This document shows positions 1,350-18,449 of a DNA stretch of 32,000 nt, piece after piece (the first letter of the stretch is position 1; every line of letters starts with the position of its first letter). The notes under the pieces were generated by a model, which worked only from the letters and a program-made list of their open reading frames with translations, did not search any database and was not told the origin of the DNA. This DNA comes from Cupriavidus necator (lineage in GTDB: Bacteria > Pseudomonadota > Gammaproteobacteria > Burkholderiales > Burkholderiaceae): positions 390,001 to 422,000 of the forward strand of contig NZ_CP066019.1 of the NCBI RefSeq assembly GCF_016127575.1, written 5' to 3'. Both the position numbers and the translations under genes were made by a program.

Positions 1350-1736
1350 GCGCTCTCGCGGCGCGGTGGCGTGGGCAGGCTGGTGCCCTGCGCGGGGCCG
1401 TGGTGGTAGCGGCGTGGTGCAAACGTATGCTGACATCGGAATGTGCGGGTGATGCGCCGGCCACGATGGCGGCGCGGAGCCTGCGAAGCAGTGTGAAGCC
1501 GGCAGCCGTCCGGCATCCCCACTCGACGAGGGGGGGCGAGTGCGCCCGGTACGCCGCACGACGCCTTAAGTCCGCCTTGCAGTGAAACAGCCCCGCGCTC
1601 CAGGTGACAGAAACGGGCCCATTCAACTGCCCGTCCGCCGCAGGCCATATGCGCCGCGATGCGCCACCCGCGTCGGGGAGTGCCTGGCGCCATGGCAGCG
1701 GCAATCATGCTTCCAGTACTGCCTTCCTGTTACCGC

Positions 1737-2363
1737 ATGCCTACGACCAACCCGCATCTTCATTACGTTCCAGCCGGCGTCACGCTTCCCGTGGCGGCGC
1801 ATGAAGGTGATCCCTTTCGAAGCCTGAAGGTCATGGCCGAGGCGAATCCGGACGCCGTCGTGGCCACCGACGAGGCCGGCGGACCGCTGACCTGCGCGCA
1901 GTTGCTGAATGCGAGCCTCATGCTGGCGGGATACATGCAGCAGCGCCTGGATGTCCGCGGCGGCGAGCGTGTGTTGCTGATGCTGCCGGCATATCCCCCG
2001 CTGGCAATTGGCTGGTATGCCGCGCTGCGCTGCGATGCTGGCGTGGTCTCGCTGGACCCTTGCAGCTCCGCTGGGGAAGTGGCGGTATGCCTGAGCGAGT
2101 CCGGGGCACGCGTGGCCATTGTCCTGGCGGACGCGCTGGCCAGCGTGAATCCCATGCTGGAGAACGGACGGCTGCGCGCCTGCATTGCCGCGGCGCCGCC
2201 CGCTTCAGACTGGCGCCGCTCGGGCGGCGCGGGACAGCATCCACGGGTGCATGCATTCGGCGATGCCCTGGCGGCGGGCATCGAGGCGATGCCGGCGCGG
2301 GGCTCGGGCAATGCGCCCGCCTCCCCGCGTGGCGCCCGTACGCCGCACAACTTCCTCCGCTAA
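1737..2363 (+). pseudogene. 5' fragment of an AMP-dependent acyl-CoA synthetase/ligase (N-terminal ~200 aa only)
   Basis: From ATG 1737 the frame reads MPTTNPHLHYVP...PDAVVATDEAGGPLTCAQLLNASLMLAGYMQQRLDVRGGERVLLMLPAYPPLAIGWYAALRCDAGVVSLDPCSSAGEVAVCLSESGARVAIVLAD, typical of the N-terminal subdomain of adenylate-forming ligases. The frame stops at 2361-2363 before any TSGTTG-type AMP motif. None of the three forward frames downstream continues the family. Confidence 0.6.
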
Positions 2364-2509: not shown

Positions 2510-2750
2510 CAAACCACCCGATCCGGAATGCTGCGCCCGGCGCATTGAGCGTGCACGATTGCGATACGCGCGGGGTCATGTGCAACGGCTGCCGACGGGC
2601 GCCGATATGTTGCGCTTGCGCGCCGTGACCTGTCCGGTCGCGTCATAAGCGCTGGTGTCGGTGCGCCTCACTGGTCGCCCACGTTATCCTTGCCGTCGTC
2701 GGCGTGGCGCTTAATACCCGTTTTCCGGCGCAGGCATGGACCTATCATCT

Positions 2751-2759
2751 CCCCCCCCC
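2751..2759. repeat. C9 homopolymer about 190 nt upstream of the porin start
   Basis: Nine consecutive C at 2751-2759, read directly. Its last three bases form the foot of an imperfect hairpin spanning 2757-2804. Confidence 0.6.
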
Positions 2760-2950
2760 AGAGACGAGGGGGCAGGCGGGGTGGCACACCCCCTCCCGTC
2801 TGGGAGGTGGATCGGCGGCAGACAGTGGTCTCCTTGCCGGTGCGCACACAGGGATTCGAAGTGCGCCGCGTACCCGGCGGTCCGGGGCCAGAGACGGTGG
2901 CCTCCGCCATTCAACCGGGGCGCAGGGGATCCACATGGAGAAGACGAGCT

Positions 2951-4123
2951 ATGAAGAAAACAAAATTGGCCCTGGCGGTATGGGGAGCGCTTGCCGGGTT
3001 CAATGCTGCCGCGCAAACGAGCAGCGTGACGCTGTACGGTGTGATCGACGTGCCGATCGAGTATGTAAACCGGGTCGCCACGGCGCAGCCGACCGTGGTG
3101 AACGGGCAGCCGGTGTTCGCTAACACCGGCGGCTCGCGCGTGTCGATGCTGCCGCTGGGCGGCAGGGCGCCGTCGCGCTGGGGACTGCGCGGCGTGGAGG
3201 ACCTGGGGGGCGGAAACAGCGCCATCTTCGTGCTGGAAAGCGGCTTCACGGCTGATTCGGGCGCCATGACATCGGGCAGGCTGTTCGGCCGCCAGTCCTA
3301 TGTCGGCCTGCAGAGCAAGACCTACGGCAAGCTGATGTTCGGCCGCCAGTACACCTCTCTTTTCGAGGGGCTGTCGAACTTCACGCCCACGCGGTATGCG
3401 TCGACGTATGACCCCGTCGCCTGGCAGCTCGGCATCAACTATCGCGAGGACAACACGATCAAATACCTGGGCACGTTCGGCCCGGTAACGGTGGCGGCGC
3501 ACTACTCGTTTGGCGTTGGCGTGCCGCTGATTGGCGCCACGCCGCTCGCAGGCGGCGGTGCCGGCGAGACGCCGGGGGCGTTCCGCGACAACAACGGCTA
3601 TGGCGCGGCGGTGACATACCTGAACGGCACCTTCGGCGCGACGCTGGCGTATGACGAATGGCATCCCGCGGTCACGTCGGGCCAGCAAGGCGTCGCCCGC
3701 AAGCTTGGCACCGCCGTCAGCTATGCCGCTGGCCCGTTCAAGGCCATGCTGGGCTATCGCTGGGCTAAGACCGACTTCGCCAATGGCAACACGCTGGCGC
3801 GCGACGACTATTACTGGGCTGGCATCAATTATGACATTACCCGGGCACTCGAGCTGACGCTAGCCTACTACTACGCCGACTTCAAATCCCTGCGCCTGGG
3901 GCCGACCGCGCCGAGCCTTGCTCCCGCGAACCCGTGGCAGACGACGCTTATTCTCGACTACCGCCTCTCGAAGCGTACCGACGTCTACTTGGCCACGGCC
4001 TACGCACGCAACGCGGGCCTGAACTTCGACTCCACACAGACCGCGTTCCTGTTCAACTATCCGTCGATGGCCGGACAGAAGGGCATGTTCGGCGTTTCCA
4101 CCGGCATTCGTCACACCTTCTGA
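2951..4123 (+). CDS. Gram-negative (Burkholderiales OmpC-like) trimeric porin, 390 aa
   Basis: ATG 2951 has GGAG at 2937-2940. The signal peptide is MKKTKLALAVWGALAGFNAAAQ/TSSVTLYGVIDV. The body is rich in alternating aromatic/Gly beta-strands, and the C-terminus ...GVSTGIRHTF ends in Phe, the outer-membrane barrel signature. The track ORF start at 2690 is an upstream extension. Confidence 0.9.
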   Translation: MKKTKLALAVWGALAGFNAAAQTSSVTLYGVIDVPIEYVNRVATAQPTVVNGQPVFANTGGSRVSMLPLGGRAPSRWGLRGVEDLGGGNSAIFVLESGFTADSGAMTSGRLFGRQSYVGLQSKTYGKLMFGRQYTSLFEGLSNFTPTRYASTYDPVAWQLGINYREDNTIKYLGTFGPVTVAAHYSFGVGVPLIGATPLAGGGAGETPGAFRDNNGYGAAVTYLNGTFGATLAYDEWHPAVTSGQQGVARKLGTAVSYAAGPFKAMLGYRWAKTDFANGNTLARDDYYWAGINYDITRALELTLAYYYADFKSLRLGPTAPSLAPANPWQTTLILDYRLSKRTDVYLATAYARNAGLNFDSTQTAFLFNYPSMAGQKGMFGVSTGIRHTF

Positions 4124-4248
4124 TCCGCAGACGGTTCGTAGCAAGGGCGGGTTGCTGCCCGCAGCCGCCCGCCACTACCGGTGCCGCGACATCCGCTCTG
4201 TGCGGGTGCGCGCGCGGTGCCGGCGAGCAATTAACCCAGGAGTACGCG

Positions 4249-7200
4249 TTGCAAACCACCTATGACTATATCGTGATTGGCGCCGGGTCTGCGGGCTGCG
4301 CCGTCGCAGGCCGCCTGGCTGACGCCCGTGCCGGCACCGTTGCGGTGCTTGAGGCGGGTGGGCATGACTGCCGCCCGGCCATTACGGTCCCAATCGGATT
4401 TGCGTCGACGGTGCCGAAGCCCGGCCCGTTCAACTACGGCTTCACGACCGAGCCGCAGCGTGCGCTCGGGGGGCGGCGCGGCTACCAGCCGCGGGGCCGG
4501 GTGCTGGGTGGAAGCTCGTCGATTAACGGTATGATCTATATCCGCGGAACGCCGTCCGACTACGACGGTTGGGCGGCCGCAGGTTGCGAAGGGTGGGGGT
4601 GGAGCGATGTCCTGCCGTACTTCAAACGGGCGGAATGCAATGAACGCCTGGGCGGCGGTACCGAAGACGACTGGCACGGCGGGAGTGGTCCGCTGCATGT
4701 GGTCGATACCCGCTCGCTCAATCCATTCGACCGGCGATTCGTCGAGGCAGCGCAGGCCGCCGGCTACCGGTACAACCACGATTTTAACGGCGCGCAGCAG
4801 GAAGGCATCGGCTTTTACCAGCGCACCCAACGCGACGGCGAGCGCTGGAACACGGCGCGCGCCTATCTGCATGGCGGCGATGCCTCGTCGCTCAATGGCG
4901 GCCGCCCGAACCTCGATGTGCTGACGGACACACAGGTCCTGCGTATCGTGTTCGAGAACAAGCGAGCGACCGGCGTTGCAGTGGTGCGCGGCGGGGTCGA
5001 GCAAGTGCTTCGCGCGCGCCGCGAGATCATCCTCACCGCCGGCGCATTCGGCTCGCCGCAACTGTTGATGGCCTCCGGCATCGGTCCGGCGGGCCATCTG
5101 CGCGACATGGGTATCGACGTTATCCATGACGCCCCGGAAGTCGGGCAGAACCTGCAGGAACACCCAGACATGAAACTCGGGCACCGGCTGGTCAGCGCCG
5201 ACCTGTACGCCTTTACGCTACGCGGGGCGCTGCGTCTGGCAAGCGAGTGGCGACGCTACCGGAAGCAGCGCTTCGGCATGTTTGCTTCCAATATCGCCGA
5301 GTGCGGCGGCTTCCTGAAGAGCCGTCCGGACCTCGCCGATCCCGACCTGCAGCTGCACTTCACCGCGACGCTGGGAGATCCGAACGCGCGCAACGTCCAC
5401 GGCTACTGCCTGCATGTGTGCGTGCTTCGCCCCCGCAGCCGCGGGGAGGTCCTGCTGGCCAGCCCGGACGCGCGCCAGGCACCGAAGATCGACCAGAACC
5501 TGCTGGCAGATGCGTACGACATGGAGACCCTGCTGGCGGGCACGAAGATCATCCATCGCATTCTCGGCCAGGAGCCGCTTGCGCGGCTTGGCGGAAAGCC
5601 CCACAAGTATGGACATTTGCGCTTCGATGGCAGCGACGATGAAGCGGTACGCGAACTGATCCGCGAGCGCGCCGACGTTGTCTTCCATCCTGTCGGCACT
5701 TGCCGAATGGGGAGCGACAGCGGATCCGTGGTCGACCCGCAACTGCGCGTGCGCGGCGTCGAAGGACTGCGCGTGGCCGACGCCTCGGTCATGCCGGCCC
5801 TCATCGGTGGCAACACCAACGCGCCCGCGATCATGATTGGCGAAAAGGCGGCCGACCTTGTGCGCGGCATCGCGCGCGCGGGCGGCGACGCGATAGTCGA
5901 CGGCCACGCACCCGGGCGTGCACCGGTGACGGAAGCCGGCGCAGCCAGTACGGCTTGGGCAAAAGCTGACGTTTCCCGGGCTGCGGCGCCCTCCATCAGC
6001 AAAGCGATGCTGGCGAGCGCCCTGGTGGCGGCGCTGTCCTCGGGCGCTCACGCCGTCACTGCGCCGGACCCGGCCAAGCCCGCGAGCGCCACGACCGCCG
6101 CCAGCAACGCCGCGGTGCACCAGCAACTGCCGTTCACGGACCGCGCCGACTACGAGGCGGTCGAGCGCGGGCTGGTCGCGCCGTTTCGCGGGGAAGTCCG
6201 CGACGCGTCCGGCCGAGTGATCTGGAATCCGGCAGACTACGACTTCCTGCGTGCCGAGGCCGCGCCGGACACGGTCAATCCCAGCCTCTGGCGCATGGCG
6301 CAGCTCAACGCGCACGCCGGACTGTTCCGGGTCACCGACGGGGTCTACCAAGTGCGCGGCATGGACCTCGCCAACATGTCGATCATCGAAGGCCGGACCG
6401 GCGTGATCGTGGTCGATCCGCTGACCCGATCGGAAACCGCGCGGGCGGCGCTGGAACTGTACTACGCCAACCGGCCGCGCAAGCCGGTGGTCGCCGTCAT
6501 CTACAGCCACAGCCACGTGGACCACTTCGGAGGGGTACGGGGCGTGGTCGACGAGGCGGACGTCAAGGCGGGCAAGGTCGCGATCCTGGCGCCGGCGGGC
6601 TTCATGCAGGAGGCGGCAAGCGAAAACGTCTTTGCCGGGACGGCCATGTTCCGTCGCGCCATCTACCAGGGAGGATACGGCGTGGTGCGCGGCGCCCGGG
6701 GCCAGGTCGATACCGGGATCGGCAAGGGCGTGCCGCTGGGCGGCACTACAGGCCTCATTCCACCCACGGTGCAGATCGTTAAACCCTACGAGGCGCGGCA
6801 CATCGATGGTGTGGCATTTGAGTTTCAGTTGACGCCCGGCACTGAAGCGCCCGCCGAAATGAACTTCTACCTGCCCGGCAAGCGCGCGCTGTGCATGGCG
6901 GAGAACGCGACACGGACGATGCACAACATTCTGACGCCGCGCGGCGCGCTGGTGCGCGATCCGAAGGCGTGGGGCAGGTTCCTGGACGCGAGCCTGGTCA
7001 GGTATGGCGATCGCGCCGACGTGCTGTTCGCTCAACACAACTGGCCGACCTGGGGCGGCGAGAACATCCGCACGATGCTGGCCGACGAGCGCGACATGTA
7101 CACCTTCCTCAACGACCGCACGCTGCACCTGATCAACCAGGGCATGACGCCGCTGGAGATTGCCGACACCATGAAAAAGTTGCCCGGCAAGCTGGATCAG

Positions 7201-7974
7201 ACGTGGTACACGCGCGGCTACTACGGCTCGCTCAGCTTCAACGCGCGGGCCGTGTACCAGCGCTACATGGGCTTCTATGACGGCAACCCGGCCAACCTCG
7301 ACCCGCTGCCGCCGGTCGAGTCCGGCAAGCGCTACGTGCAAGCCATGGGCGGGTCCGGCCACGTGCTGGACCTGATGCGCGATGCCATGGCGAAGGGCGA
7401 TTTCCGCTGGGCGGCGCAGCTCGGCAACAACCTTGTGTTCGCCGAACCCGGCAATACCGCGGCCCGCCAGGCGCAGGCAGATACGCTGGAACAGCTTGCC
7501 TACCAGAGCGAGAATTCGCTCTGGCGCAATATGTACCTGAGCGGCGCCAAGGAGCTGCGCGGCGGCGTGCCGACGCTGGGCTCCGTTCGCAACGCCGCCG
7601 ACCTCGTCAGGGCGATGGAACCGTCCATGTTCTTCGACTACATGGGCGTGCGCCTGGATTCGGACAAGGCCCAGGGACACGACATGACGCTGAACTGGGT
7701 GTTCACCGATCTGGGCAAGCCTTTCGCGCTGACGCTGCGCAACGGCGTGCTGACATACCGCGAGAACAGCCGCCATGCCAGGGCCGATGCCACCGTGACC
7801 ATGACCAAGGCGACGCTGGACGGCATCGGCCTGCGCGAACTGGACTTGCCTCAGGCGGTACGCGAGGGCAAGGTGAAGGTGGAGGGCGACGCGGGCAAGC
7901 TGACGCAGCTCATAGGCATGCTGGCCACGTTCGATCCGTCGTTTGGCATCGTGGCACCGCTGGCAACGCAGTAG
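4249..7974 (+). CDS. continuous 1241-codon ORF: a GMC-family FAD oxidoreductase (choline / long-chain-alcohol dehydrogenase-like) fused in frame to an SdsA1-type MBL-fold alkyl/aryl-sulfatase
   Basis: TTG 4249 lies 6 nt after AGGAG (4238-4242). GMC hallmarks are QTTYDYIVIGAGSAGCAVAGRLAD, GSSSINGMIY, FHPVGTCRMG and NTNAPAIMIGEKAADLVRG (ending near 5870). The same frame stays open to TAG 7972-7974. Positions 3934-4248 of the track ORF overlap the porin gene and are not coding. Confidence 0.7.
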   Translation: MQTTYDYIVIGAGSAGCAVAGRLADARAGTVAVLEAGGHDCRPAITVPIGFASTVPKPGPFNYGFTTEPQRALGGRRGYQPRGRVLGGSSSINGMIYIRGTPSDYDGWAAAGCEGWGWSDVLPYFKRAECNERLGGGTEDDWHGGSGPLHVVDTRSLNPFDRRFVEAAQAAGYRYNHDFNGAQQEGIGFYQRTQRDGERWNTARAYLHGGDASSLNGGRPNLDVLTDTQVLRIVFENKRATGVAVVRGGVEQVLRARREIILTAGAFGSPQLLMASGIGPAGHLRDMGIDVIHDAPEVGQNLQEHPDMKLGHRLVSADLYAFTLRGALRLASEWRRYRKQRFGMFASNIAECGGFLKSRPDLADPDLQLHFTATLGDPNARNVHGYCLHVCVLRPRSRGEVLLASPDARQAPKIDQNLLADAYDMETLLAGTKIIHRILGQEPLARLGGKPHKYGHLRFDGSDDEAVRELIRERADVVFHPVGTCRMGSDSGSVVDPQLRVRGVEGLRVADASVMPALIGGNTNAPAIMIGEKAADLVRGIARAGGDAIVDGHAPGRAPVTEAGAASTAWAKADVSRAAAPSISKAMLASALVAALSSGAHAVTAPDPAKPASATTAASNAAVHQQLPFTDRADYEAVERGLVAPFRGEVRDASGRVIWNPADYDFLRAEAAPDTVNPSLWRMAQLNAHAGLFRVTDGVYQVRGMDLANMSIIEGRTGVIVVDPLTRSETARAALELYYANRPRKPVVAVIYSHSHVDHFGGVRGVVDEADVKAGKVAILAPAGFMQEAASENVFAGTAMFRRAIYQGGYGVVRGARGQVDTGIGKGVPLGGTTGLIPPTVQIVKPYEARHIDGVAFEFQLTPGTEAPAEMNFYLPGKRALCMAENATRTMHNILTPRGALVRDPKAWGRFLDASLVRYGDRADVLFAQHNWPTWGGENIRTMLADERDMYTFLNDRTLHLINQGMTPLEIADTMKKLPGKLDQTWYTRGYYGSLSFNARAVYQRYMGFYDGNPANLDPLPPVESGKRYVQAMGGSGHVLDLMRDAMAKGDFRWAAQLGNNLVFAEPGNTAARQAQADTLEQLAYQSENSLWRNMYLSGAKELRGGVPTLGSVRNAADLVRAMEPSMFFDYMGVRLDSDKAQGHDMTLNWVFTDLGKPFALTLRNGVLTYRENSRHARADATVTMTKATLDGIGLRELDLPQAVREGKVKVEGDAGKLTQLIGMLATFDPSFGIVAPLATQ
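6007..7974 (+). CDS. SdsA1-like alkyl/aryl-sulfatase module (655 aa if translated independently from ATG 6007)
   Basis: It starts with the signal-peptide-like MLASALVAALSSGAHA/VTAPD. It then carries LPFTDRADYEAVERGL, VNPSLWRMAQLN, YQVRGMDLANMSII, YSHSHVDHFGG (MBL HxHxDH), FYLPGKRALCMAEN, YYGSLSFNARAVYQRYMGFYDGNPANLDPL and an SCP2-like C-terminus. This is collinear with P. aeruginosa SdsA1 as I recall it. Module identity is confident (about 0.9). Whether it is a separate CDS is not: there is no upstream in-frame stop and no SD. Confidence 0.5.
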   Translation: MLASALVAALSSGAHAVTAPDPAKPASATTAASNAAVHQQLPFTDRADYEAVERGLVAPFRGEVRDASGRVIWNPADYDFLRAEAAPDTVNPSLWRMAQLNAHAGLFRVTDGVYQVRGMDLANMSIIEGRTGVIVVDPLTRSETARAALELYYANRPRKPVVAVIYSHSHVDHFGGVRGVVDEADVKAGKVAILAPAGFMQEAASENVFAGTAMFRRAIYQGGYGVVRGARGQVDTGIGKGVPLGGTTGLIPPTVQIVKPYEARHIDGVAFEFQLTPGTEAPAEMNFYLPGKRALCMAENATRTMHNILTPRGALVRDPKAWGRFLDASLVRYGDRADVLFAQHNWPTWGGENIRTMLADERDMYTFLNDRTLHLINQGMTPLEIADTMKKLPGKLDQTWYTRGYYGSLSFNARAVYQRYMGFYDGNPANLDPLPPVESGKRYVQAMGGSGHVLDLMRDAMAKGDFRWAAQLGNNLVFAEPGNTAARQAQADTLEQLAYQSENSLWRNMYLSGAKELRGGVPTLGSVRNAADLVRAMEPSMFFDYMGVRLDSDKAQGHDMTLNWVFTDLGKPFALTLRNGVLTYRENSRHARADATVTMTKATLDGIGLRELDLPQAVREGKVKVEGDAGKLTQLIGMLATFDPSFGIVAPLATQ

Positions 7975-7991: not shown

Positions 7992-8018
7992 GCCGGGGCC
8001 GCACAAGGCGGCTCCGGC
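7992..8018. terminator. GC-rich hairpin between the convergent sulfatase and IclR genes (candidate bidirectional terminator)
   Basis: gccggggccgc-acaag-gcggctccggc forms an 11-bp stem with one G-T wobble. It is followed by gccgcttattcttt, which overlaps the IclR stop. Confidence 0.4.
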
Positions 8019-8023
8019 GCCGC

Positions 8024-8764
8024 TTATTCTTTGTCCAGGACCGTGTCGCGCACTTCCAGCAAGGCGGCCACGTAGGCATCACGGTTCTTCTTGACCCGTT
8101 CGGTGGGGCCGGCCAGCGCCACGCCTGCCGGCGTGCCGGCCAGCCACCCGGTCGCGGCGAGCCCGTAGACGCCGTCGCTGCCTTCCTCGCGTGAGTCGTA
8201 CCAGCCGCGCTGCCGCATCTTCGCGATTTCGGCCATGAGCTTGTCGGGATCAACCACCGTGCGTTCGGTCAGGCGACGCATGCCCGACTTTGCCAGCATT
8301 GCCCGCGCCTCTTCCGGGGGCAGCAGGCCGAGCAATGCTTTCCCGGTCGCGGAGGCGTGGAGGGCGGCATGCGAGCCCACTTCGACGATGTAGCGCAGCG
8401 GTTCGCGGCTGGGCTGCACGGCCACCACCCGGACGTGCTGCCCCTCCAGTACGCTGAAGTAGGCGCTCTCGTTAGTCAGGGCCGCGAGCCGCTCGACGGC
8501 TTCGCGCGCCACGACACCGAGCGGATCGTTCTCCGCGATCTGCCTCACGATCTCCAGCAGGCGGCCGGTGGGGTAGAAGCGGCGGTTGCGCGCGGTGCGC
8601 GTGAGGTAGCCCAGCGAATGCAGGGTGTGGAGCAGGTCGGAGGTGCTGGTTTCGGGCAATTGCAGCAGCCGGGCCAGGTCCGAGTTGGACAATTCGCGCT
8701 TCTCACGCGCGAAGACTTCGAAGACCGCCATGGCGCGGGCGGCCGACGGGATCAGCGTGGGCAT
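8024..8764 (-). CDS. IclR-family transcriptional regulator (paralog 1)
   Basis: Track ORF of 246 aa. It has an N-terminal wHTH (AVFEVFAREKRELSNSDLARLLQLPETSTSDLLHTLHSLGYL) and a C-terminal IclR effector domain (GSHAALHASATGKALL). Confidence 0.9.
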   Translation of the reverse strand: MPTLIPSAARAMAVFEVFAREKRELSNSDLARLLQLPETSTSDLLHTLHSLGYLTRTARNRRFYPTGRLLEIVRQIAENDPLGVVAREAVERLAALTNESAYFSVLEGQHVRVVAVQPSREPLRYIVEVGSHAALHASATGKALLGLLPPEEARAMLAKSGMRRLTERTVVDPDKLMAEIAKMRQRGWYDSREEGSDGVYGLAATGWLAGTPAGVALAGPTERVKKNRDAYVAALLEVRDTVLDKE

Positions 8765-12935: not shown

Positions 12936-12979
12936 ATTGCTACGGTATGTCGTAGTATTGCTCTACAACTCGTAGCAAT
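12936..12979. promoter_or_regulatory. nested inverted repeats in the divergent IclR-2 / Bug intergenic region (candidate IclR operator)
   Basis: ATTGCTACG (12936-12944) and CGTAGCAAT (12971-12979) are exact reverse complements. Between them, CGTAGTATTGCTCTAC (12951-12966) repeats both half-sites imperfectly. Confidence 0.4.
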
Positions 12980-13058
12980 GCAACTGGGAAATTTCGCCGG
13001 CCTGTCGGGCTGGCGACGCCGCGAAGCCACACCAACACACCCAAAGGAGACTCTTCGC

Positions 13059-14063
13059 ATGGAACTTCGGACCATCACGCGCACGCTGGCGCCACGCCTT
13101 CGCCGGATCGGCGCGACCTGTGTGGCGGCAGCGGTGGCTGCGAGCGATGCGCTCGCGCAGCCCGCTTATCCCGCCAGGCCAGTCACGATCGTCTCCGTCG
13201 GACCGGCCGGCGGGGTCACGGATCAGGCCGCGCGGCTGATCGCCACCAAGGTCGGTGCGCGCCTTGGGCAAACCGTGATCGTCGATGACCGAGGCGGCGC
13301 GGGCGGAAATATCGGCGCGGAGTACGCCTCGAAAGCAGCGCCGGACGGCTACACGCTGATGGTCGGCACGCAGGGCACCCAGTCGACCAACCAGTTCCTC
13401 TTCAAATCGTTGCGCTTCAATCCCGAGAAAGATTTCGTGCCGGTGCACGGGATCATTTCGCTGCCCAACGTGCTGGTGGTCAATGCCAGTCGTCCATATC
13501 GGTCGGTGGGTGAATTTGTCGCCTATGCCAGGACGCATCCCGGCAAGGTGACGGCGGCATCCGGAGGCAACGGGACCGGAATGCACCTTGCCATCGAGCA
13601 GTTCCGGAGCGTGGCCGGCGTAGACCTGGTGCATGTGCCGTACAAGGGCAGTCCGCCCGCGATCACCGATCTCGTAAGCGGGCAGGTGGACCTGTGCTTC
13701 GACTATCCGGCGACCACCGTCGGCCACATCCGGAGCGGCAAGCTGCGCGCGCTCGCCGTGCTGGGGCCGAACCGGCTGCCGCAGTTGCCGCAGGTTCCCA
13801 CGATTGCCGAGGCCGGATTCCCGCGCGCCGAATCCACCGACTGGATCGGCCTGTTCGCGGTGGCCGGGACGCCGCAGCCGATTGTCGACCGGTGGACCAG
13901 GGAGGTGGCGCTCGTCCTGCAGGGGCCTGATGTCATCGCGTCCTTCGAGCGCATGGGCGGCGTGCCGCTGCCGCTGGGCGGCGAGCAGTTCGGCAGCTTC
14001 ATCGTCTCCGAGCGGGTCAAATGGAAGGCGGTGATCGAACGCACCGGCGCACGGATCGAATAA
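13059..14063 (+). CDS. Bug/TctC-family tripartite tricarboxylate transporter substrate-binding protein (periplasmic)
   Basis: ATG 13059 lies 8 nt after AAAGGAGA. The signal peptide ends ...AASDALAQ. Family motifs present are YPARPVTIV, GGAGGNIGAEYASKAAPDGYTL, FNPEKDFVPV and VPYKGSPPAITDLVSGQVD. Confidence 0.9.
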   Translation: MELRTITRTLAPRLRRIGATCVAAAVAASDALAQPAYPARPVTIVSVGPAGGVTDQAARLIATKVGARLGQTVIVDDRGGAGGNIGAEYASKAAPDGYTLMVGTQGTQSTNQFLFKSLRFNPEKDFVPVHGIISLPNVLVVNASRPYRSVGEFVAYARTHPGKVTAASGGNGTGMHLAIEQFRSVAGVDLVHVPYKGSPPAITDLVSGQVDLCFDYPATTVGHIRSGKLRALAVLGPNRLPQLPQVPTIAEAGFPRAESTDWIGLFAVAGTPQPIVDRWTREVALVLQGPDVIASFERMGGVPLPLGGEQFGSFIVSERVKWKAVIERTGARIE

Positions 14064-14086
14064 CGCATCACCACGAGGAGATCACC

Positions 14087-14890
14087 ATGTACGAAGCTAT
14101 CCAGTACGAGAACGAAGATGGCGTGGGCGTGCTCACGCTGGAGCGCCCGCAAACCAAGAATGCCGTGGACGCCGTCATGCGCCGCGAACTGCCACAGTTG
14201 ATGGGCGCCCTGAACACCGACCGCACGCTCAAGGTACTCATCGTCACTGGCGCCGGCGGCAATTTCTGTTCGGGTGGCGACCTGCGCGCGGTGCGCGACA
14301 GCGCGGGCAGCGAAGGCTCGGCGGAGGGGCGCCGCCAGCGCATCCTGGACGGGCAGGCTACCCCCGGCGCGTTCCTGAATTTCGACCGCCCTGTCATCGC
14401 GGTGGTGGAGGGCGTTGCCTATGGGGCTGGCTGCTCGCTGGCACTGACCGCTGACATGGTCCTCGCCGCGCGCGACGCGCGCTTTTGCCTGTCGTTCGGC
14501 AGGATCGGCGCGGTGCCGGACTACGGCGCCTTCTATACGCTGCCGCGCATCGTCGGATTGCAACGGGCGAAGGAACTCGTTTTCTCCGCGCGCGAATTCG
14601 GGGCGGCCGAGGCACGCGATCTCGGCATCGTGATGGAGGTGCACGAGCCCGGTACCGTGCTCGACCGGGCGCGGGAGATTGCCCGCAGCATGGCGCAAGC
14701 GTCGCCCCTCGCGCTCAGCGTATCCAAGCGCGCGTTGAATACCTCTCTCCATTCCGATCTGCCGACCATGCTGATGCACGAAGCAGACGGGCAGGGTATT
14801 GCGATGAGCACCGACTATCACCTGACGGCAGTCAGGCGATTCCTGGACAAGGAGCCGCCGCTGTTCTCGTGGCCGCGCCGGCGCGACTGA
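14087..14890 (+). CDS. enoyl-CoA hydratase/isomerase (crotonase) family protein 1
   Basis: ATG 14087 lies 6 nt after GAGGAG. The sequence includes GVGVLTLERPQTKNAVD, ...VLIVTGAGGNFCSGGDL... and ...VIAVVEGVAYGAGCSLAL. Confidence 0.9.
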   Translation: MYEAIQYENEDGVGVLTLERPQTKNAVDAVMRRELPQLMGALNTDRTLKVLIVTGAGGNFCSGGDLRAVRDSAGSEGSAEGRRQRILDGQATPGAFLNFDRPVIAVVEGVAYGAGCSLALTADMVLAARDARFCLSFGRIGAVPDYGAFYTLPRIVGLQRAKELVFSAREFGAAEARDLGIVMEVHEPGTVLDRAREIARSMAQASPLALSVSKRALNTSLHSDLPTMLMHEADGQGIAMSTDYHLTAVRRFLDKEPPLFSWPRRRD

Positions 14891-14924
14891 ACCTCGACCA
14901 GCCAATCCACAACCAGGAGGAAAC

Positions 14925-15701
14925 ATGAACGACTGGACCCAGTTGAAGTTGTCCGTGGATCGCCACATCGCGGTCGTTACGATGGATGCGCCGCCCGTCA
15001 ATGCGCTGACGCGCGGGCTCAACGACGAGCTCGTTGCCGTGCTCGACCAGCTTTCCGACACACCCGAGGTACGCGTCATTGTCCTGACAGGCGCAGGCAA
15101 GGTGTTCTGCGCCGGCGCGGACATCAAGGGCCGTGGCGCGCTGGTCGATGGCCCCGGCGCCCTGCGCGCCCATTCGCGCCGCACACGGGAGTGCTTCCAT
15201 GCGATCCGTGAATGTGCCAAGCCCGTGGTGGCGGCGCTCAATGGCCCCGCGCTGGGCGCGGGACTGGCCATTGCCGCTTCCGCAGACATCCTCGTGGCCA
15301 GCGAGCAGGCCAGCGCGGGTTTGCCGGAAATCGACGTCGGGGCGCTTGGCGGCGGCCGGCATGCCATGCGCCTGTTCGGGCATTCGCGCGTGCGCCGCAT
15401 GATGCTGACCGGCTATCGCGTTCCCGCGCCCGAGCTGTATCGCCTCGGCATCGTCGAAGCGTGCGTGGCGCCCGATGCACTGATGCCGGCAGCGCTGGAG
15501 CTGGCGGAACAGGTCGCCTCCAAGAGTCCGGTGGTGTCCCAGCTTGCCAAGCACACCCTCAATACGATCGAGCACATGGGCTTGCGCGACGGCTATCGCT
15601 ACGAACAGGACCAGACCGCCATCCTCTCGAAGACGGAAGACTGCAGGGAGGCACAGGCGGCATTCCGCGAGAAGCGGGCGCCGGTCTTCGTCGGCCGCTG
15701 A
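14925..15701 (+). CDS. enoyl-CoA hydratase/isomerase (crotonase) family protein 2
   Basis: Track ORF of 258 aa with AGGAGG upstream. The sequence includes IAVVTMDAPPVNAL, ...VIVLTGAGKVFCAGADI... and ...VVAALNGPALGAGLAIA. Confidence 0.9.
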   Translation: MNDWTQLKLSVDRHIAVVTMDAPPVNALTRGLNDELVAVLDQLSDTPEVRVIVLTGAGKVFCAGADIKGRGALVDGPGALRAHSRRTRECFHAIRECAKPVVAALNGPALGAGLAIAASADILVASEQASAGLPEIDVGALGGGRHAMRLFGHSRVRRMMLTGYRVPAPELYRLGIVEACVAPDALMPAALELAEQVASKSPVVSQLAKHTLNTIEHMGLRDGYRYEQDQTAILSKTEDCREAQAAFREKRAPVFVGR

Positions 15702-15829
15702 GGGTGCTTCGGGCACGGCCGTGTAACAACTTCCCGCCTGCGTGTTGCCGATTCTGTCAAATGCGGGCAGGTGCCCGCCCATATAGTGATGACGCACAGG
15801 TCCCCGCCTGGAACCAACGAGGAATACGC

Positions 15830-17251
15830 ATGGAGACGCTTGAGAAGTTCTACATTGCCGGCGGATGGGTGGCGCCGTCGCCCGGCTCGACCCTGGCAGA
15901 AATCGTCAACCCGGCGAGCGAAGCGGTGATCGGCACGCTCGCAATGGGCACGGCGGCAGACGTGGATCGCGCCGTCGCCGCCGCGCGCGCCGCGTTCCCC
16001 GCTTGGTCGGAGTCGGGTCGCGAAGACCGCATTGCGCTGCTTGAGCGCATCATTACCCGCTATCAAGAGCGGCTCGACGACATGGCCCGGGCGGTGCGGC
16101 TGGAAATGGGCGCGCCCGCCACGCTGGCGCGCAACGTACACGCCATGGCGGGCCTGGGACAGTTGCACGCGACGCTGGCGGCGCTGAGGACCTTCGAATT
16201 CGAAACTGCGCGGGGCAAGGGCGTCATACGGCGCGAGGCGATCGGCGTGGCCGCGCTGGTGACGCCCTGGAACTGGCCGCTGAACCAGATCGTGGCGAAG
16301 GTGGCGCCGGCCATTGCGGCGGGCTGCGCCGTGGTGCTGAAGCCATCCGAGATTGCCCCGCTCGATGCGCGTATCTTCGCGGAGATCATGCACGACGCCG
16401 GCACGCCGCCCGGCGTGTTCAACATGCTCTCCGGGACAGGGCAGACCGTGGGAACAGCGTTGTCGTCCCATCCCGACGTGGATGTGGTCTCGTTCACCGG
16501 CTCGACGCGCGCCGGCATCCAGGTGGCCATCAACGCAGCGCCGACCGTCAAGCGTGTGGCGCAGGAGCTGGGCGGGAAGTCGGCACTGGTCATCCTGGAT
16601 GACGCCGACCTCCGCGCCGCCGTCAGCGGCGGCGTGGCGCAGTGCATGGCGAACAGTGGCCAGACCTGCGTGGCGCCGACGCGCATGCTGGTGCCACGCG
16701 AGCGCTATGACGAGGCGGTCGGCATCGCCGCCGCCCTGGCGGATGCCACGAACGTCGGCGATCCGGAAGATCCGGCGACCAGCATGGGGCCGCTGTCGAG
16801 CCGGGCGCAGTACGAGCGGGTCCAGCATCTGATCGCCGTGGGCATGGGGGAGGGCGCGCGCGTTGCGGCGGGAGGCCTGGGGCGGCCTCGGGGCCTGGAA
16901 CGCGGCTTCTTTGCGAGGCCGACCATCTTCGCCGGTGTGCGCAATGACATGGCCATTGCGCGCGAGGAGATCTTCGGGCCGGTGCTTGTCATGATTGCGC
17001 ATGACGGGGACGACCACGCCGTGGCCCTTGCCAACGACTCTCCCTTCGGCCTCGCAGGCTATGTGATGTCGGGCAACGCCGACCGTGCGCGCAAGGTGGC
17101 ACGGCGGCTGCGGGCAGGCATGGTCCGCATCAATGGCGCGCCCCCCGATCTGTCGCTGCCGTTCGGCGGCTACAAGCAGTCCGGCAACGGGCGCGAGTTC
17201 GGGCCGGAAGGCATCGCGGAGTTCCTGGAGACGAAGTCGATCATCGGCTGA
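15830..17251 (+). CDS. NAD(P)+-dependent aldehyde dehydrogenase, 473 aa
   Basis: It starts at ATG 15830 (METLEKFYIAGGWV). The sequence carries VTPWNWPLNQ, FTGSTRAG, ELGGKSA, the catalytic-Cys region NSGQTCVAPTRMLV, and EEIFGPV. The track start at 15212 is an upstream extension through the previous gene. Confidence 0.92.
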   Translation: METLEKFYIAGGWVAPSPGSTLAEIVNPASEAVIGTLAMGTAADVDRAVAAARAAFPAWSESGREDRIALLERIITRYQERLDDMARAVRLEMGAPATLARNVHAMAGLGQLHATLAALRTFEFETARGKGVIRREAIGVAALVTPWNWPLNQIVAKVAPAIAAGCAVVLKPSEIAPLDARIFAEIMHDAGTPPGVFNMLSGTGQTVGTALSSHPDVDVVSFTGSTRAGIQVAINAAPTVKRVAQELGGKSALVILDDADLRAAVSGGVAQCMANSGQTCVAPTRMLVPRERYDEAVGIAAALADATNVGDPEDPATSMGPLSSRAQYERVQHLIAVGMGEGARVAAGGLGRPRGLERGFFARPTIFAGVRNDMAIAREEIFGPVLVMIAHDGDDHAVALANDSPFGLAGYVMSGNADRARKVARRLRAGMVRINGAPPDLSLPFGGYKQSGNGREFGPEGIAEFLETKSIIG

Positions 17252-17362
17252 ATGCCGGGCTTAAGCTCGTTATGGTTTTCCCGCTCCCACCCGGCGAACC
17301 CTTTGCCCGGGGCCGGAGCGTACGTCAAAAATGTCATCACCATCAAGAATCGGAGACAACTC

Positions 17363-18268
17363 ATGCGTACAGCCAGCCCCGAGTCCCCCACTGTGTCCAC
17401 CCCTGCGGTGGTGCGGCCTAACGCCTTGCATGCCTCGTTCACGGTGAGCCGCATCTCGCCGGCGCTGGGCGCCGAGGTCGGCAGTATCGACCTGGCGGCG
17501 CCGCTGGACGATGACACCATTTCCGCGCTTCGCCGCGCGCTGGTCGAACACAAGGTCCTCGTGTTCCGCGACCAGGACATCACGCCGGCGCAGCATGTGG
17601 CCTTGGCGCGCCGGTTCGGCGAGCTGGAAGTCCATCCTGCGTTCCCGCATCACGAGCAATTTCCCGAACTCGTGCTGCTTGGCGGCGATGAGCGCAAGCC
17701 CGCCATGGAAAATGGCTATCACAGCGACGTATCGTGGCGGGAACTGCCGTCGATGGGGTCGATGCTGCGCTGCGCGCAGTGTCCGGAGATTGGCGGCGAT
17801 ACTGTGTGGGTCAATATGGCGCTGGCCTACGAACGTCTGCCTGATCACCGCAAGCAGCAGATCGAGGGCCTGCTGGCCGTGCATGACATCGGGCCGGCGT
17901 TCGGCGACAAGATGACGCCCGAGCAGCAGCGCCAGTTTCCTCCCGTCGCGCATCCAGTCGTGCGCACGCACCCGGAGAGCGGGGAGAAGATCCTCTACGT
18001 GAATTCAGGGTTTGTTACGCACTTCGCCAATTTCAAATCGCGCAATCCGCTGCGTGGTGCGTTCGAGTCGCAGTCGGAAAAGCAGGACCTGCTCGACTAC
18101 CTGTTCCGCCAGCCCGCGATTCTGGAGTACCAGATGCGCCTGCGCTGGCGCCCCAACACCATCGCCTTCTGGGACAACCGCTCGACCCAGCATTACGCGA
18201 TCCAGGACTACTTTCCGGCTGTGCGCCGCATGATGCGAGCGACCATCATCGGCGACCGGCCTGTCTGA
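17363..18268 (+). CDS. TauD/TfdA-family Fe(II)/2-oxoglutarate dioxygenase (taurine dioxygenase / AtsK alkylsulfatase-like)
   Basis: ATG 17363 lies 6 nt after CGGAGA. The sequence carries HKVLVFRDQDITPAQHVALARRFGEL, YHSDVSW (HxD), GGDTVWVN, HPVVRTHPESGEK and FWDNRSTQHYAIQDY. Confidence 0.88.
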   Translation: MRTASPESPTVSTPAVVRPNALHASFTVSRISPALGAEVGSIDLAAPLDDDTISALRRALVEHKVLVFRDQDITPAQHVALARRFGELEVHPAFPHHEQFPELVLLGGDERKPAMENGYHSDVSWRELPSMGSMLRCAQCPEIGGDTVWVNMALAYERLPDHRKQQIEGLLAVHDIGPAFGDKMTPEQQRQFPPVAHPVVRTHPESGEKILYVNSGFVTHFANFKSRNPLRGAFESQSEKQDLLDYLFRQPAILEYQMRLRWRPNTIAFWDNRSTQHYAIQDYFPAVRRMMRATIIGDRPV

Positions 18269-18449
18269 TCGACGTTCCCAACACCGCGCGGCTCGCTGGA
18301 TTTCATTGCACGCTCTCGGCCTGAGATCACCAGGAAACGCACGAACTGCAAGTGCACGGGCCCGACAGTCCAGGACTTGGTCGGCGGACAGATATAGACG
18401 GCTTGCGCGATGCCTCTTGGGCTGCATTGGGCGAACTCGGCCGCTCCTG

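What the first reader, a model, noticed from the sequence alone, without database searches (positions are those of the whole stretch)
4249..7974. GMC alcohol-dehydrogenase-like enzyme reads in frame, with no stop, into a complete SdsA1-type alkylsulfatase that keeps its own signal peptide
Seen in the sequence:
- The frame opened by TTG 4249 has no stop until TAG 7972-7974.
- Up to about 5870 it encodes a complete GMC oxidoreductase (GxGxxG N-terminus, FHPVGTCRMG, NTNAPAIMIGEKAADLVRG).
- From ATG 6007 it encodes a complete SdsA1-like sulfatase, beginning with what looks like a Sec signal peptide (MLASALVAALSSGAHA/VTAPD).
- The ~45-codon Ala/Gly/Pro-rich connector (5871-6006) is open in this frame. 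TAG 5894-5896 and TGA 5927-5929 sit in the +1 frame, so a single-base indel in the cgcgcgcgggcggcgacgcg run would make or break the fusion.
- The 18 nt before ATG 6007 (ccctccatcagcaaagcg) contain no SD-like purine run, unlike most genes in this window.

Established knowledge: SdsA1 hydrolyses primary alkyl sulfates such as SDS to the alcohol. GMC enzymes of the AlkJ/LaoA type oxidise long-chain alcohols to aldehydes. These are consecutive steps.

Inference, three readings:
(a) A real Rosetta-stone fusion, where the former signal peptide works as a signal-anchor. That would place the dehydrogenase at the cytoplasmic face and the sulfatase in the periplasm.
(b) A very recent stop loss, or an assembly or homopolymer error.
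(c) Internal initiation at 6007.
Basis: partly seen in the sequence, partly recalled or inferred. Interest (0 to 1): 0.72.

Follow-up and report, generated by a model that had tools for sequence, protein, structure and literature searches.

The report
Dehydrogenase–sulfatase fusion with internal signal peptide
A Cupriavidus necator gene joins a cytoplasmic alcohol-dehydrogenase-like enzyme to a normally exported alkylsulfatase in one reading frame and keeps the sulfatase's export signal in the middle of the protein, so one gene probably supplies enzymes to both sides of the inner membrane.

Summary
TTG 4249 to TAG 7972-7974 is one 1241-codon frame encoding a complete GMC flavoenzyme, a ~45-residue linker, a signal-peptide-like segment and a complete metallo-beta-lactamase-fold alkylsulfatase.

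It is not an assembly error or a recent stop loss. It is C. necator H16 protein CAJ95210.1, annotated as "Two domain protein". At least eleven other fused orthologue clusters (71-77% identity) exist in Cupriavidus species and metagenomes. Their linkers are hypervariable and of seven lengths, yet always in frame and free of stops.

Relatives carry the unfused state, with adjacent GMC and sulfatase genes, an SD and an N-terminal signal peptide on the sulfatase. These are one metagenome contig (77% identity), two Pseudomonas species and Rivibacter.

The internal segment is homologous to that signal peptide. All twelve fused proteins keep a basic n-region, a 13-20-residue uncharged core and an AxA-type site. 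It is too weakly hydrophobic to be a membrane anchor.

No conserved internal start codon or SD exists.

Best reading, not proven: the internal signal exports the sulfatase half, and signal peptidase probably cleaves it.

Correction: the sulfatase is closer to Pisa1 (60% identity) than to SdsA1.

Interest is moderate. The fusion is already annotated; the internal-signal topology seems undescribed.

The parts
2690..4123 (+). Upstream porin gene (Porin_4). The true start is probably downstream of 2690. It lies on the same strand, 125 nt before the fused gene.
   Evidence: Pfam Porin_4 E 4.8e-43. The orthologous locus L001 also has a porin directly upstream of the fused gene.
4238..4242 (+). Shine-Dalgarno-like AGGAG, 6 nt before the TTG start.
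   Evidence: Read from the sequence.
4249..5871 (+). GMC flavin oxidoreductase domain, codons 1-541. It begins directly with the Rossmann strand and GAGSAG, with no N-terminal signal peptide.
   Evidence: Pfam GMC_oxred_N and GMC_oxred_C. NCBIfam choline-dehydrogenase-like, below the equivalog cut-offs. Closest solved structures are 9lq0, 8b7s and 8rpg. Mean pairwise identity among fused orthologues is 0.79.
5872..5997 (+). Hypervariable Ala/Gly/Pro/Arg-rich linker, codons 542-583.
   Evidence: Mean pairwise column identity is 0.23 with 22% gaps. Total GI-to-KPAS length is 62-72 codons among orthologues. GC at codon positions 1/2/3 is 0.75/0.69/0.72, so there is no coding periodicity. AF2 pLDDT is below 50 for residues 546-604. 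There are no in-frame stops in 9 orthologues.
5998..6054 (+). Internal signal-peptide-like segment, codons 584-602. The n-region is ISK, the h-region is AMLASALVAALSSGA, and the c-region is AHA. The predicted signal-peptidase site lies after A602 (nt 6054|6055). ATG 6007 is codon 587.
   Evidence: It aligns with the N-terminal signal peptides of Pisa1 and stand-alone homologues, and with the signal-peptide coding DNA of the split-state locus L010. The n/h/c features are conserved in all 12 fused proteins. AF2 predicts a helix at 586-597.
6055..7971 (+). Mature alkylsulfatase, codons 603-1241: MBL catalytic domain, dimerisation domain and SCP2-like C-terminal domain.
   Evidence: Pfam. 60% identity to Pisa1 (4av7/2yhe); 642 bits to SdsA1 (2cfu). 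Mean pairwise identity among fused orthologues is 0.78.
6508..6525 (+). HSHVDH, the HxHxDH binuclear-zinc motif of the MBL domain (H754, H756, D758, H759).
   Evidence: H754, H756, D758 and H759 are invariant in alignment A1; S755 is nearly invariant and position 757 varies. The motif aligns with HSHIDH of Pisa1.
7972..7974 (+). TAG stop of the fused gene.
8006..8025 (+). Terminator-like GC-rich hairpin followed by a T-rich run, between the fused gene and the convergent IclR gene.
   Evidence: Consensus scan. The number of such sites in the region is not above the shuffle expectation, so this is weak evidence.
8024..8764 (-). Convergent IclR-family regulator.
   Evidence: Pfam HTH_IclR and IclR_C. 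The same arrangement occurs in orthologous locus L002.

Best explanation
An ancestral two-gene operon has been fused into one reading frame in a Cupriavidus lineage. The operon consisted of a cytoplasmic GMC flavin dehydrogenase followed by a Sec-exported alkylsulfatase. The fusion removed the GMC stop codon, the spacer, and the SD and start of the sulfatase. It kept the sulfatase's signal peptide, which now sits about 585 residues into the protein.

Shown here:
- The fusion is real, old and kept open by selection.
- The linker is a disordered, nearly unconstrained tether.
- The internal segment is homologous to the signal peptide and keeps its n/h/c features.

Inferred:
- The GMC domain folds with FAD in the cytoplasm.
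- When the internal signal emerges it engages SecA/SecYEG in an N-in/C-out orientation.
- The roughly 640-residue sulfatase half is translocated to the periplasm.
- Signal peptidase I probably cuts after the AxA site (A602|V603).
- The result is the same mature periplasmic sulfatase as in unfused relatives, plus a dehydrogenase whose C-terminal tail ends in the membrane-embedded signal peptide.

Pathway logic (inferred): the sulfatase releases an alcohol from an alkyl sulfate outside the inner membrane, and the alcohol partitions into that membrane. The GMC enzyme oxidises it at the cytoplasmic face. Neighbouring aldehyde dehydrogenase and beta-oxidation genes take it further.
For: Fusion real and selected:
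- There are 12 fused clusters at 71-77% identity in C. necator H16 (CAJ95210.1), Cupriavidus sp. DF5525, C. oxalaticus, C. numazuensis, JMP134 (Q46UK0) and metagenomes.
- Nine linkers were read at DNA level. They have seven different lengths (62-72 codons), are all in frame, and have no in-frame stops.
- Each linker has only a 0.36-0.58 chance of being open in shuffles, with a product of 1.3e-3.
- Fused sulfatase domains are as divergent from each other (73-78%) as from the nearest stand-alone enzymes.

Split ancestor:
- L010 has a GMC gene (77% identity) ending 17 codons after GEKAADLVRGI, a 123-nt spacer with GGAGA, then a sulfatase with its own signal peptide.
- The same gene order, as separate genes, occurs in Pseudomonas jinjuensis, Pseudomonas sp. 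N040 and Rivibacter subsaxonicus.

Signal retained:
- Column identity is 0.45 with 2% gaps, against 0.23 with 22% gaps for the upstream linker.
- The uncharged core is 13-20 residues, against a mean of 13.9 in 106 stand-alone signal peptides.
- Mean KD12 hydropathy is 2.02 against 2.24.
- A basic residue lies immediately upstream in 11 of the 12 proteins (in P0124 the basic pair is two residues away). Net charge is about +2.3 before the core and about 0 after it. An AxA-type site is present in all 12.
- GC3 is 0.85, like coding sequence, against 0.72 in the linker.

No internal start: there is no conserved ATG, GTG or TTG and no SD.

Export is needed for function: signal-less Pisa1-clade sulfatases lost whole-cell SDS desulfation in E. 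coli (PMC6107682).

Internal hydrophobic signals more than 100 residues from the N-terminus are handled co-translationally by SecA, helped by upstream basic residues (PMC5674894).

AF2 predicts two well-folded domains, pLDDT below 50 for residues 546-604, a helix at 586-597, and pTM 0.55, so no confident docking of the two domains.

Context:
- A porin lies upstream.
- An aldehyde dehydrogenase lies 11-30 nt downstream in L004 and L006.
- Acyl-CoA dehydrogenase, enoyl-CoA hydratase and thiolase genes are nearby.
Against: - No experimental evidence on localisation or processing was found.
- No SignalP or TM predictor was available. The signal-peptide call rests on homology and simple hydropathy and -3/-1 rules, and AxA-like triplets are frequent by chance in Ala-rich sequence.
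- Shuffle P values for the uncharged run in single sequences are modest (0.004-0.30).
- I know of no characterised bacterial case in which a large soluble cytoplasmic enzyme precedes a cleavable Sec signal. The classic internal-signal polyprotein (FbcH, recalled from memory) has a polytopic membrane protein upstream.
- The fused cores are slightly less hydrophobic than stand-alone signal peptides.
- RefSeq also holds short sulfatase-only calls for some Cupriavidus genomes (687, 586 and 531 aa). Their cause was not resolved.
Confidence: 0.5

Rival explanations
1. Uncleaved signal-anchor. The hydrophobic segment stays in the membrane as a single N-in/C-out span. One ~135-kDa bitopic protein then holds the dehydrogenase at the cytoplasmic face and the sulfatase at the periplasmic face.
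For: - It shares the evidence for export given in the best explanation.
- GMC alcohol dehydrogenases such as AlkJ are membrane-associated and reduce ubiquinone (PMC5404194), so tethering could be useful.
Against: - The uncharged core is only 13-16 residues in 11 of the 12 proteins.
- The summed Hessa-scale cost over the best 19-residue window is +2.8 to +7.3. That matches cleavable signal peptides of stand-alone homologues (mean +4.3), not a stable helix.
- An AxA-type site is kept in all 12 proteins.
Confidence: 0.15
2. A wholly cytoplasmic bifunctional enzyme. The former signal peptide no longer drives export. It survives as a relic or as a membrane-association patch, and both reactions occur inside the cell.
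For: - A folded 540-residue domain ahead of a moderately hydrophobic signal is an unusual Sec substrate.
- The fused cores are slightly less hydrophobic than those of stand-alone enzymes (KD12 2.02 against 2.24).
- Other GMC relatives are fused to cytoplasmic partners such as P450, aldehyde dehydrogenase and AMP-binding enzymes.
Against: - A relic should have decayed like the adjacent linker (identity 0.23, many indels). Instead, position, length, upstream charge and the AxA site are kept in all 12 lineages.
- Signal-less homologues could not desulfate SDS in whole cells (PMC6107682).
- A porin is the upstream neighbour.
- AF2 gives no sign of docked domains.
Confidence: 0.2
3. Internal translation initiation at ATG 6007 (reading c). 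The sulfatase precursor is made separately from within the long ORF and exported normally. The full-length fusion is then a minor or inert product.
For: - In this strain an ATG sits exactly at the start of the h-region.
- P0005 and P0011 also have a Met there.
Against: - There is no SD-like sequence within 20 nt upstream of ATG 6007 or of any equivalent codon.
- The start is not conserved.
- L005 has no ATG, GTG or TTG in the whole linker. L003 and L006-L008 have none placed before the n/h region.
- Split-state relatives all have clear SDs.
- If the sulfatase had its own start, stops in the linker would be tolerated, yet none occurs.
Confidence: 0.1
4. Assembly or homopolymer error, or a very recent stop loss (reading b).
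For: In this window alone, an open 44-codon GC-rich linker is expected by chance about 46% of the time. +1-frame stops lie close by.
Against: - The identical 1241-aa protein is on 63 contigs, including several C. necator records.
- Fused orthologues at 71-77% identity come from independent genomes and metagenomes.
Confidence: 0.01

Closest known systems
Pisa1, the inverting sec-alkylsulfatase of Pseudomonas sp. DSM 6611 (PDB 2yhe/4av7), and the wider group-III MBL-fold alkylsulfatases (SdsA1 2cfu, SdsAP 4nur, YjcS 4pdx)
   Same: - The same three-domain architecture and HxHxDH zinc motif.
- 60% identity to Pisa1 over 646 residues.
- The internal segment aligns with Pisa1's N-terminal signal peptide.
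   Different: - Here the enzyme is the C-terminal half of a 1241-residue protein, and its signal peptide is internal.
- Substrate preference (primary or secondary alkyl sulfates) is unknown. Pisa1 prefers secondary esters, but the Pisa1-clade enzymes SdsAP1 and SdsAP2 degrade SDS (PMC6107682).
Membrane-associated GMC alcohol dehydrogenases of alkane and SDS catabolism (AlkJ of P. putida GPo1; LaoA of P. aeruginosa)
   Same: - GMC fold with an FAD Rossmann motif and no signal peptide.
- Genomic coupling to an alcohol-releasing enzyme and, in some orthologous loci, to an aldehyde dehydrogenase.
- AlkJ reduces ubiquinone and is membrane-associated (PMC5404194).
- laoABC oxidises the dodecanol derived from SDS (PMC6107682).
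   Different: - Sequence relatedness to AlkJ or LaoA was not tested here.
- The best solved relatives are a choline dehydrogenase, a chloramphenicol oxidase and alcohol oxidases.
- The domain scores below the BetA equivalog cut-offs.
Unfused GMC-sulfatase gene pairs (metagenome contig L010; Pseudomonas jinjuensis; Pseudomonas sp. N040; Rivibacter subsaxonicus)
   Same: - Same gene order and orientation.
- The GMC protein has no signal peptide, while the sulfatase has one.
- The L010 proteins are 77% (GMC) and 73-78% (sulfatase) identical to the fused ones.
   Different: They have a stop codon, a 70-120-nt spacer, and an SD and start codon for the sulfatase. In Cupriavidus these are replaced by an open, hypervariable linker.
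FbcH cytochrome b/c1 polyprotein of Bradyrhizobium japonicum (recalled from memory: Thony-Meyer et al., PNAS 1991; not retrievable here)
   Same: One gene gives two proteins. An internal signal-peptide-like sequence directs translocation of the downstream part and is cut by signal peptidase.
   Different: - In FbcH the upstream part is a polytopic membrane protein already engaged with the translocon.
- Here it is a large soluble flavoenzyme, and cleavage is only inferred.
RodZ/CadC-type N-in single-span proteins with internal hydrophobic segments targeted co-translationally by SecA
   Same: A hydrophobic segment far from the N-terminus, preceded by basic residues and followed by a translocated C-terminal domain (PMC5674894).
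   Different: - RodZ and CadC have true transmembrane helices and are not cleaved.
- Their N-terminal domains are about 100-160 residues, not about 585.

Membership tests
Group-III (MBL-fold) alkylsulfatase, SdsA1/Pisa1 family | Metallo-beta-lactamase catalytic domain with the HxHxDH binuclear-zinc motif | tested here: met
   Lactamase_B E 7.4e-19. HSHVDH at residues 754-759, with the His/Asp positions invariant among orthologues, aligns with Pisa1.
Group-III (MBL-fold) alkylsulfatase, SdsA1/Pisa1 family | Alkylsulfatase dimerisation domain and SCP2-like C-terminal domain | tested here: met
   Alkyl_sulf_dimr E 3.4e-59 and Alkyl_sulf_C E 5.7e-41. Full-length alignment to 4av7, 2yhe, 4nur, 4pdx and 2cfu.
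Group-III (MBL-fold) alkylsulfatase, SdsA1/Pisa1 family | N-terminal Sec signal peptide of about 23-26 residues (PMC6107682) | tested here: inconclusive
   A homologous n/h/c segment is present and conserved, but it is internal (residues ~584-602), not N-terminal. Whether it functions was not testable.
Group-III (MBL-fold) alkylsulfatase, SdsA1/Pisa1 family | Hydrolysis of alkyl sulfate esters | not testable with these tools
   Only indirect evidence: whole cells of C. necator and R. eutropha strains show sec-alkylsulfatase activity (PMC3920027).
GMC oxidoreductase superfamily | N-terminal GxGxxG FAD-binding Rossmann fold plus the GMC N- and C-terminal domains | tested here: met
   GAGSAG at residues 11-16. 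GMC_oxred_N E 1.6e-50 and GMC_oxred_C E 1.3e-35. The AF2 model is confident over most of the domain.
Choline dehydrogenase BetA (NCBIfam TIGR01810 / PRK02106) | Score above the curated equivalog or subfamily cut-off | tested here: not met
   463 bits against a cut-off of 732 (TIGR01810). 533 bits against 605 (NF002550).
AlkJ/LaoA-type long-chain alcohol dehydrogenases | Close sequence relationship to AlkJ or LaoA, and oxidation of long-chain primary alcohols with quinone as acceptor | not tested
Only the genomic context supports an alcohol-oxidising role: a sulfatase partner, and an aldehyde dehydrogenase downstream in L004 and L006.
Rosetta-stone (gene-fusion) pair | The two halves occur as separate, functionally linked genes in other genomes | tested here: met
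   Separate adjacent genes in L010, L012, L014 and L042.
Type II signal-anchor membrane protein | Hydrophobic segment long and hydrophobic enough to span the bilayer (about 19 or more apolar residues, insertion free energy near or below zero) | tested here: not met
   The uncharged run is 13-16 residues in 11 of 12 proteins. The crude Hessa-scale sum over the best 19-mer is +2.8 to +7.3. This is a simplified scale without position terms.
Polyprotein split by an internal, signal-peptidase-cleaved signal peptide (FbcH-like) | Internal n/h/c segment with small residues at -3 and -1 | tested here: met
   All 12 fused proteins have one (AHA|V, VHA|A, AQA|A, VSA|A and others). This is a weak test in Ala-rich sequence.
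Polyprotein split by an internal, signal-peptidase-cleaved signal peptide (FbcH-like) | Two mature polypeptides demonstrated | not testable with these tools
   No proteomic or biochemical data were found.

The most novel reading that the evidence does not exclude
A natural 'one gene, two compartments' enzyme. A Sec signal peptide about 585 residues into the chain, behind a folded soluble flavoenzyme, still drives export of the downstream sulfatase and is cut by signal peptidase. A single ORF then delivers stoichiometric amounts of a periplasmic hydrolase and a cytoplasmic-face dehydrogenase, the latter transiently tail-anchored by the spent signal peptide. Sec export would also explain why the gene fusion was tolerated and became fixed.
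Probability: 0.45. Interest if true: 0.72.

Novelty: new variant of a known kind. Interest (0 to 1): 0.55.

Why it matters
- If the internal signal works, this is a natural test case for how Sec/SecA recognises a cleavable, weakly hydrophobic signal far from the N-terminus and behind a large folded domain. That has mostly been studied with engineered constructs or true membrane anchors.
- It would show how gene fusions between proteins of different compartments can be tolerated: the export machinery separates the two products again.
- The conserved GMC-sulfatase pairing, fused or adjacent across Cupriavidus, Pseudomonas and Rivibacter, links a specific GMC subfamily to alkyl-sulfate (detergent) catabolism. 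It nominates that subfamily as the missing alcohol-oxidising step in these organisms.
- For annotation, it flags inconsistent RefSeq gene models for this locus.

Tried and rejected
- Internal start codon: I looked for a conserved one with an SD in nine orthologous DNA sequences and found none.
- Genome scan for fused versus split loci: the scan was truncated at 600 GMC pattern hits and did not return the Cupriavidus genomes. It did reveal three split-state genera.
- Search of 1.84 billion cluster representatives for independent GMC-sulfatase fusions: the only two-stretch top hits were tandem sulfatase-sulfatase proteins (P0241, P0249) and double-GMC eukaryotic proteins. This negative is weak, because the Cupriavidus fusion itself was hidden behind a single-domain representative.
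- tblastn against plasmids, to find AlkJ for comparison: it returned only unannotated or generic GMC paralogues at 60% identity or less.
- Literature searches for the fusion, for the H16 product name and for FbcH found nothing usable.
A 1115-residue construct was used instead.
- Twin-arginine export: RR occurs before the core in only some orthologues and never in a full Tat motif.
- Lipoprotein: no lipobox is present.
- Export of the whole protein: rejected because the N-terminus is the Rossmann strand, with no signal.
- DNA alignment of the linkers with the L010 spacer: only the signal-peptide part aligns convincingly.

Full report
**1. The observation**

The frame that opens at TTG 4249 runs without a stop to TAG 7972-7974; the stop-to-stop ORF starts at 3934. 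Its 1241-residue product contains these Pfam domains:
- GMC_oxred_N, residues 5-306
- GMC_oxred_C, 395-531
- Lactamase_B, 707-831
- Alkyl_sulf_dimr, 967-1106
- Alkyl_sulf_C, 1116-1237

- The +1-frame stops are at 5894 and 5927.
- There is no SD before ATG 6007.
- The segment MLASALVAALSSGAHA/VTAPD is present.
- TTG 4249 has an AGGAG 6 nt upstream (4238-4242).

By itself the open linker means little. With this base composition a 44-codon stretch is open in 46% of shuffles.

**2. It is a real, old, selected fusion**

The protein is C. necator H16 CAJ95210.1, which the genome's annotators named [quoted passage not shown]. The identical sequence is on 63 contigs.

Eleven further fused clusters at 71-77% identity come from these sources:
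- Cupriavidus sp. DF5525
- C. oxalaticus
- C. numazuensis
- JMP134 (Q46UK0)
- an unnamed Cupriavidus assembly
- several metagenomes

I fetched DNA for eight of them. Together with the window that gives nine sequences:
- The stretch from the end of the GMC domain to the mature sulfatase N-terminus (KPAS) has seven different lengths, 62-72 codons.
- It is always in frame and has no in-frame stop.
- The other two frames carry stops.
- Each variable linker has only a 0.36-0.58 chance of being open, with a product of 1.3e-3.

The sulfatase domains of the fused proteins are 73-78% identical to each other and equally 73-78% identical to the nearest stand-alone enzymes. The fusion has therefore survived substantial divergence. 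Reading (b), an artefact or recent stop loss, is refuted.

**3. The ancestral state is a two-gene operon**

The stand-alone sulfatase closest to several fused ones (P0122) lies on metagenome contig L010. It sits directly downstream of a separate GMC gene whose product is 77% identical to the window's GMC domain. In L010:
- The GMC gene stops 17 codons after GEKAADLVRGI.
- A 123-nt, lower-GC spacer carries GGAGA.
- The sulfatase starts at its own ATG with an N-terminal signal peptide.

A genome scan found the same order, as separate genes, in three more organisms:
- Pseudomonas jinjuensis, where the two genes share a frame and are separated by one TGA and 78 nt
- Pseudomonas sp. N040
- Rivibacter subsaxonicus

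In each, the sulfatase has an SD and a signal peptide, and the GMC protein has no signal. This is a textbook Rosetta-stone relationship. It supports a functional link between the two enzymes.

**4. Anatomy of the junction**

Mean pairwise column identity among fused orthologues:

| Region | Identity | Gaps |
|---|---|---|
| GMC domain | 0.79 | 0% |
| Variable linker | 0.23 | 22% |
| Signal-peptide-like segment | 0.45 | 2% |
| Mature sulfatase N-terminus | 0.63 | 6% |
| Rest of the sulfatase | 0.78 | 4% |

- The linker has no codon-position GC periodicity (0.75/0.69/0.72).
- The signal-like segment does show periodicity (GC3 0.85), as do the domains (GC3 0.82 and 0.87).
- AlphaFold2 on a 1115-residue construct gives two confident domains, pLDDT below 50 for residues 546-604, and a short helix at 586-597. 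Its pTM of 0.55 gives no sign that the two domains dock.

The linker thus behaves as a tether whose only constraint is to stay open and in frame. That is expected if a stop there would abolish sulfatase synthesis.

**5. The internal segment is the sulfatase's signal peptide, still in shape**

- It aligns with the N-terminal signal peptides of Pisa1 and of stand-alone homologues of about 657 residues.
- It also aligns with the signal-peptide coding DNA of L010.
- In all 12 fused proteins there is an uncharged core of 13-20 residues, usually ending 9 residues before KPAS.
- A basic residue lies immediately upstream in 11 of the 12 (two residues away in P0124). Net charge is about +2.3 before the core and about 0 after it.
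- An AxA-type site follows the core: AHA|V, VHA|A, AQA|A, VSA|A and others.

I compared these cores with 106 stand-alone signal peptides:

| Measure | Fused | Stand-alone |
|---|---|---|
| Mean uncharged core length (residues) | 15.0 | 13.9 |
| Hydropathy, best 12-mer (KD12) | 2.02 | 2.24 |
| Crude Hessa-scale cost, best 19-mer | +4.9 | +4.3 |

The segment therefore looks like a cleavable signal peptide, not a transmembrane anchor.

**6. No internal start**

- The Met of ATG 6007 is not conserved.
- L005 has no ATG, GTG or TTG anywhere in its linker.
- Four other orthologues have none before the n/h region.
- None has an SD, whereas every split-state relative does.

Reading (c) is unlikely as the conserved mechanism. 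It cannot be excluded as a minor route in H16.

**7. Mechanism (inferred)**

- The GMC domain starts directly with its Rossmann strand and must fold with FAD in the cytoplasm.
- Alkylsulfatases of this group carry signal peptides. Signal-less versions of Pisa1-clade enzymes could not desulfate SDS in whole E. coli cells (PMC6107682). A sulfatase kept under purifying selection is therefore expected to be exported.
- SecA can recognise hydrophobic segments more than 100 residues from the N-terminus co-translationally, helped by upstream basic residues (PMC5674894).

The best-supported model has four steps:
1. The internal signal inserts N-in/C-out.
2. The sulfatase half is translocated.
3. Signal peptidase probably cuts at the retained AxA site.
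4. This regenerates the two ancestral proteins: a periplasmic sulfatase, and a GMC dehydrogenase with a tail that ends in the membrane.

This model also explains why the fusion was tolerated. Once the SD and start were lost, any stop in the linker would be lethal to sulfatase expression, which locks the frame open. A permanent signal-anchor and a fully cytoplasmic bifunctional enzyme remain possible.

The genomic context fits alkyl-sulfate catabolism:
- A porin lies upstream.
- An aldehyde dehydrogenase lies 11-30 nt downstream in two orthologous loci.
- Beta-oxidation genes are nearby.

**8. Comparison with known families**

- The sulfatase half meets the defining sequence features of group-III MBL-fold alkylsulfatases. 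It is closest to Pisa1 (60% identity, 888 bits) rather than SdsA1 (642 bits).
- Pisa1 prefers secondary alkyl sulfates, but Pisa1-clade enzymes also degrade SDS.
- Whole cells of C. necator strains show sec-alkylsulfatase activity (PMC3920027).
- The GMC half is a bona fide GMC oxidoreductase. It is below the BetA equivalog cut-offs, and I could not compare it with AlkJ or LaoA.
- The nearest mechanistic precedent for one gene giving two proteins through an internal signal peptide is FbcH of Bradyrhizobium. I recall this from memory and could not retrieve the paper. In FbcH the upstream part is a membrane protein; here it is soluble.

**9. Novelty and verdict**

- The fusion itself has been visible in annotation since the H16 genome was annotated ("Two domain protein").
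- I found no paper that discusses it or the internal signal peptide.
- No independent GMC-sulfatase fusion surfaced among 1.84 billion cluster representatives. This negative is weak.

I rate it a new variant of known kinds: a Rosetta-stone fusion and an internal-signal polyprotein. Interest is moderate, and the localisation experiment is clear and cheap.

Noticed in passing
window 4249-4275: RefSeq model WP_231881483.1 (1233 aa) starts at GTG 4273, which removes MQTTYDYI, the first Rossmann strand. TTG 4249, with AGGAG at 4238-4242, matches CAJ95210.1 (1241 aa) and the N-termini of all orthologues. The RefSeq start is probably wrong.
   Followed up: partly
window 14021-18268 (+): A cluster of two enoyl-CoA hydratases, an aldehyde dehydrogenase (Pfam match from about 15866) and a TauD-family dioxygenase (17252-18268), preceded by a TctC-family binding protein (12978-14063). 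A TauD-family enzyme beside an aldehyde dehydrogenase could be an AtsK-like alkyl-sulfate dioxygenase. Orthologous locus L004 also has TauD and TauE next to the fused gene.
   Followed up: no
window ~18000-30000: GC content drops from 0.66-0.69 to 0.54-0.62. The genes here include LysR, AraC, FAA hydrolase, a polysaccharide deacetylase, MFS and amidohydrolase. This may be a horizontally acquired segment.
   Followed up: no
L012:4400-4800 (Pseudomonas jinjuensis): The separate GMC and sulfatase genes are in the same reading frame, divided by a single TGA and a 78-nt spacer with an AAGGAAGG SD. One point mutation would give a read-through fusion, though the sulfatase start would still be present.
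   Followed up: partly
P0241 (1241 aa), P0249 (1047 aa): These are tandem sulfatase-sulfatase fusion proteins from the representative library, with two alkylsulfatase units in one chain.
   Followed up: partly
hits P0037, P0045, P0074, P0078, P0079, P0102, P0115: Bacterial relatives of this GMC domain (39-53% identity) are fused to aldehyde dehydrogenase, AMP-binding enzyme, alpha/beta hydrolase, cytochrome P450 or DUF4334. This GMC subfamily seems prone to fusing with pathway partners.
   Followed up: no
alignment A1 columns ~684-715 (P0007, P0009; also P0124, P0397): The C. oxalaticus/JMP134 clade carries an insertion of about 30 residues, rich in Gly, Ser and Gln, early in the sulfatase domain. 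It is absent from the window protein.
   Followed up: no
RefSeq proteins WP_280519704.1 (687 aa), WP_258234555.1 (586 aa), WP_235679933.1 (531 aa): These are sulfatase-only models from Cupriavidus genomes in the same 90% cluster as full-length fusions. The 687-aa model starts inside the hydrophobic core. They may be annotation choices or genuine disruptions of the GMC half; this was not resolved.
   Followed up: partly
window 1659-2363 (+): A 234-aa ORF matches only the first ~116 positions of the AMP-binding enzyme profile. It may be a truncated or frameshifted acyl-CoA synthetase gene upstream of the porin.
   Followed up: no
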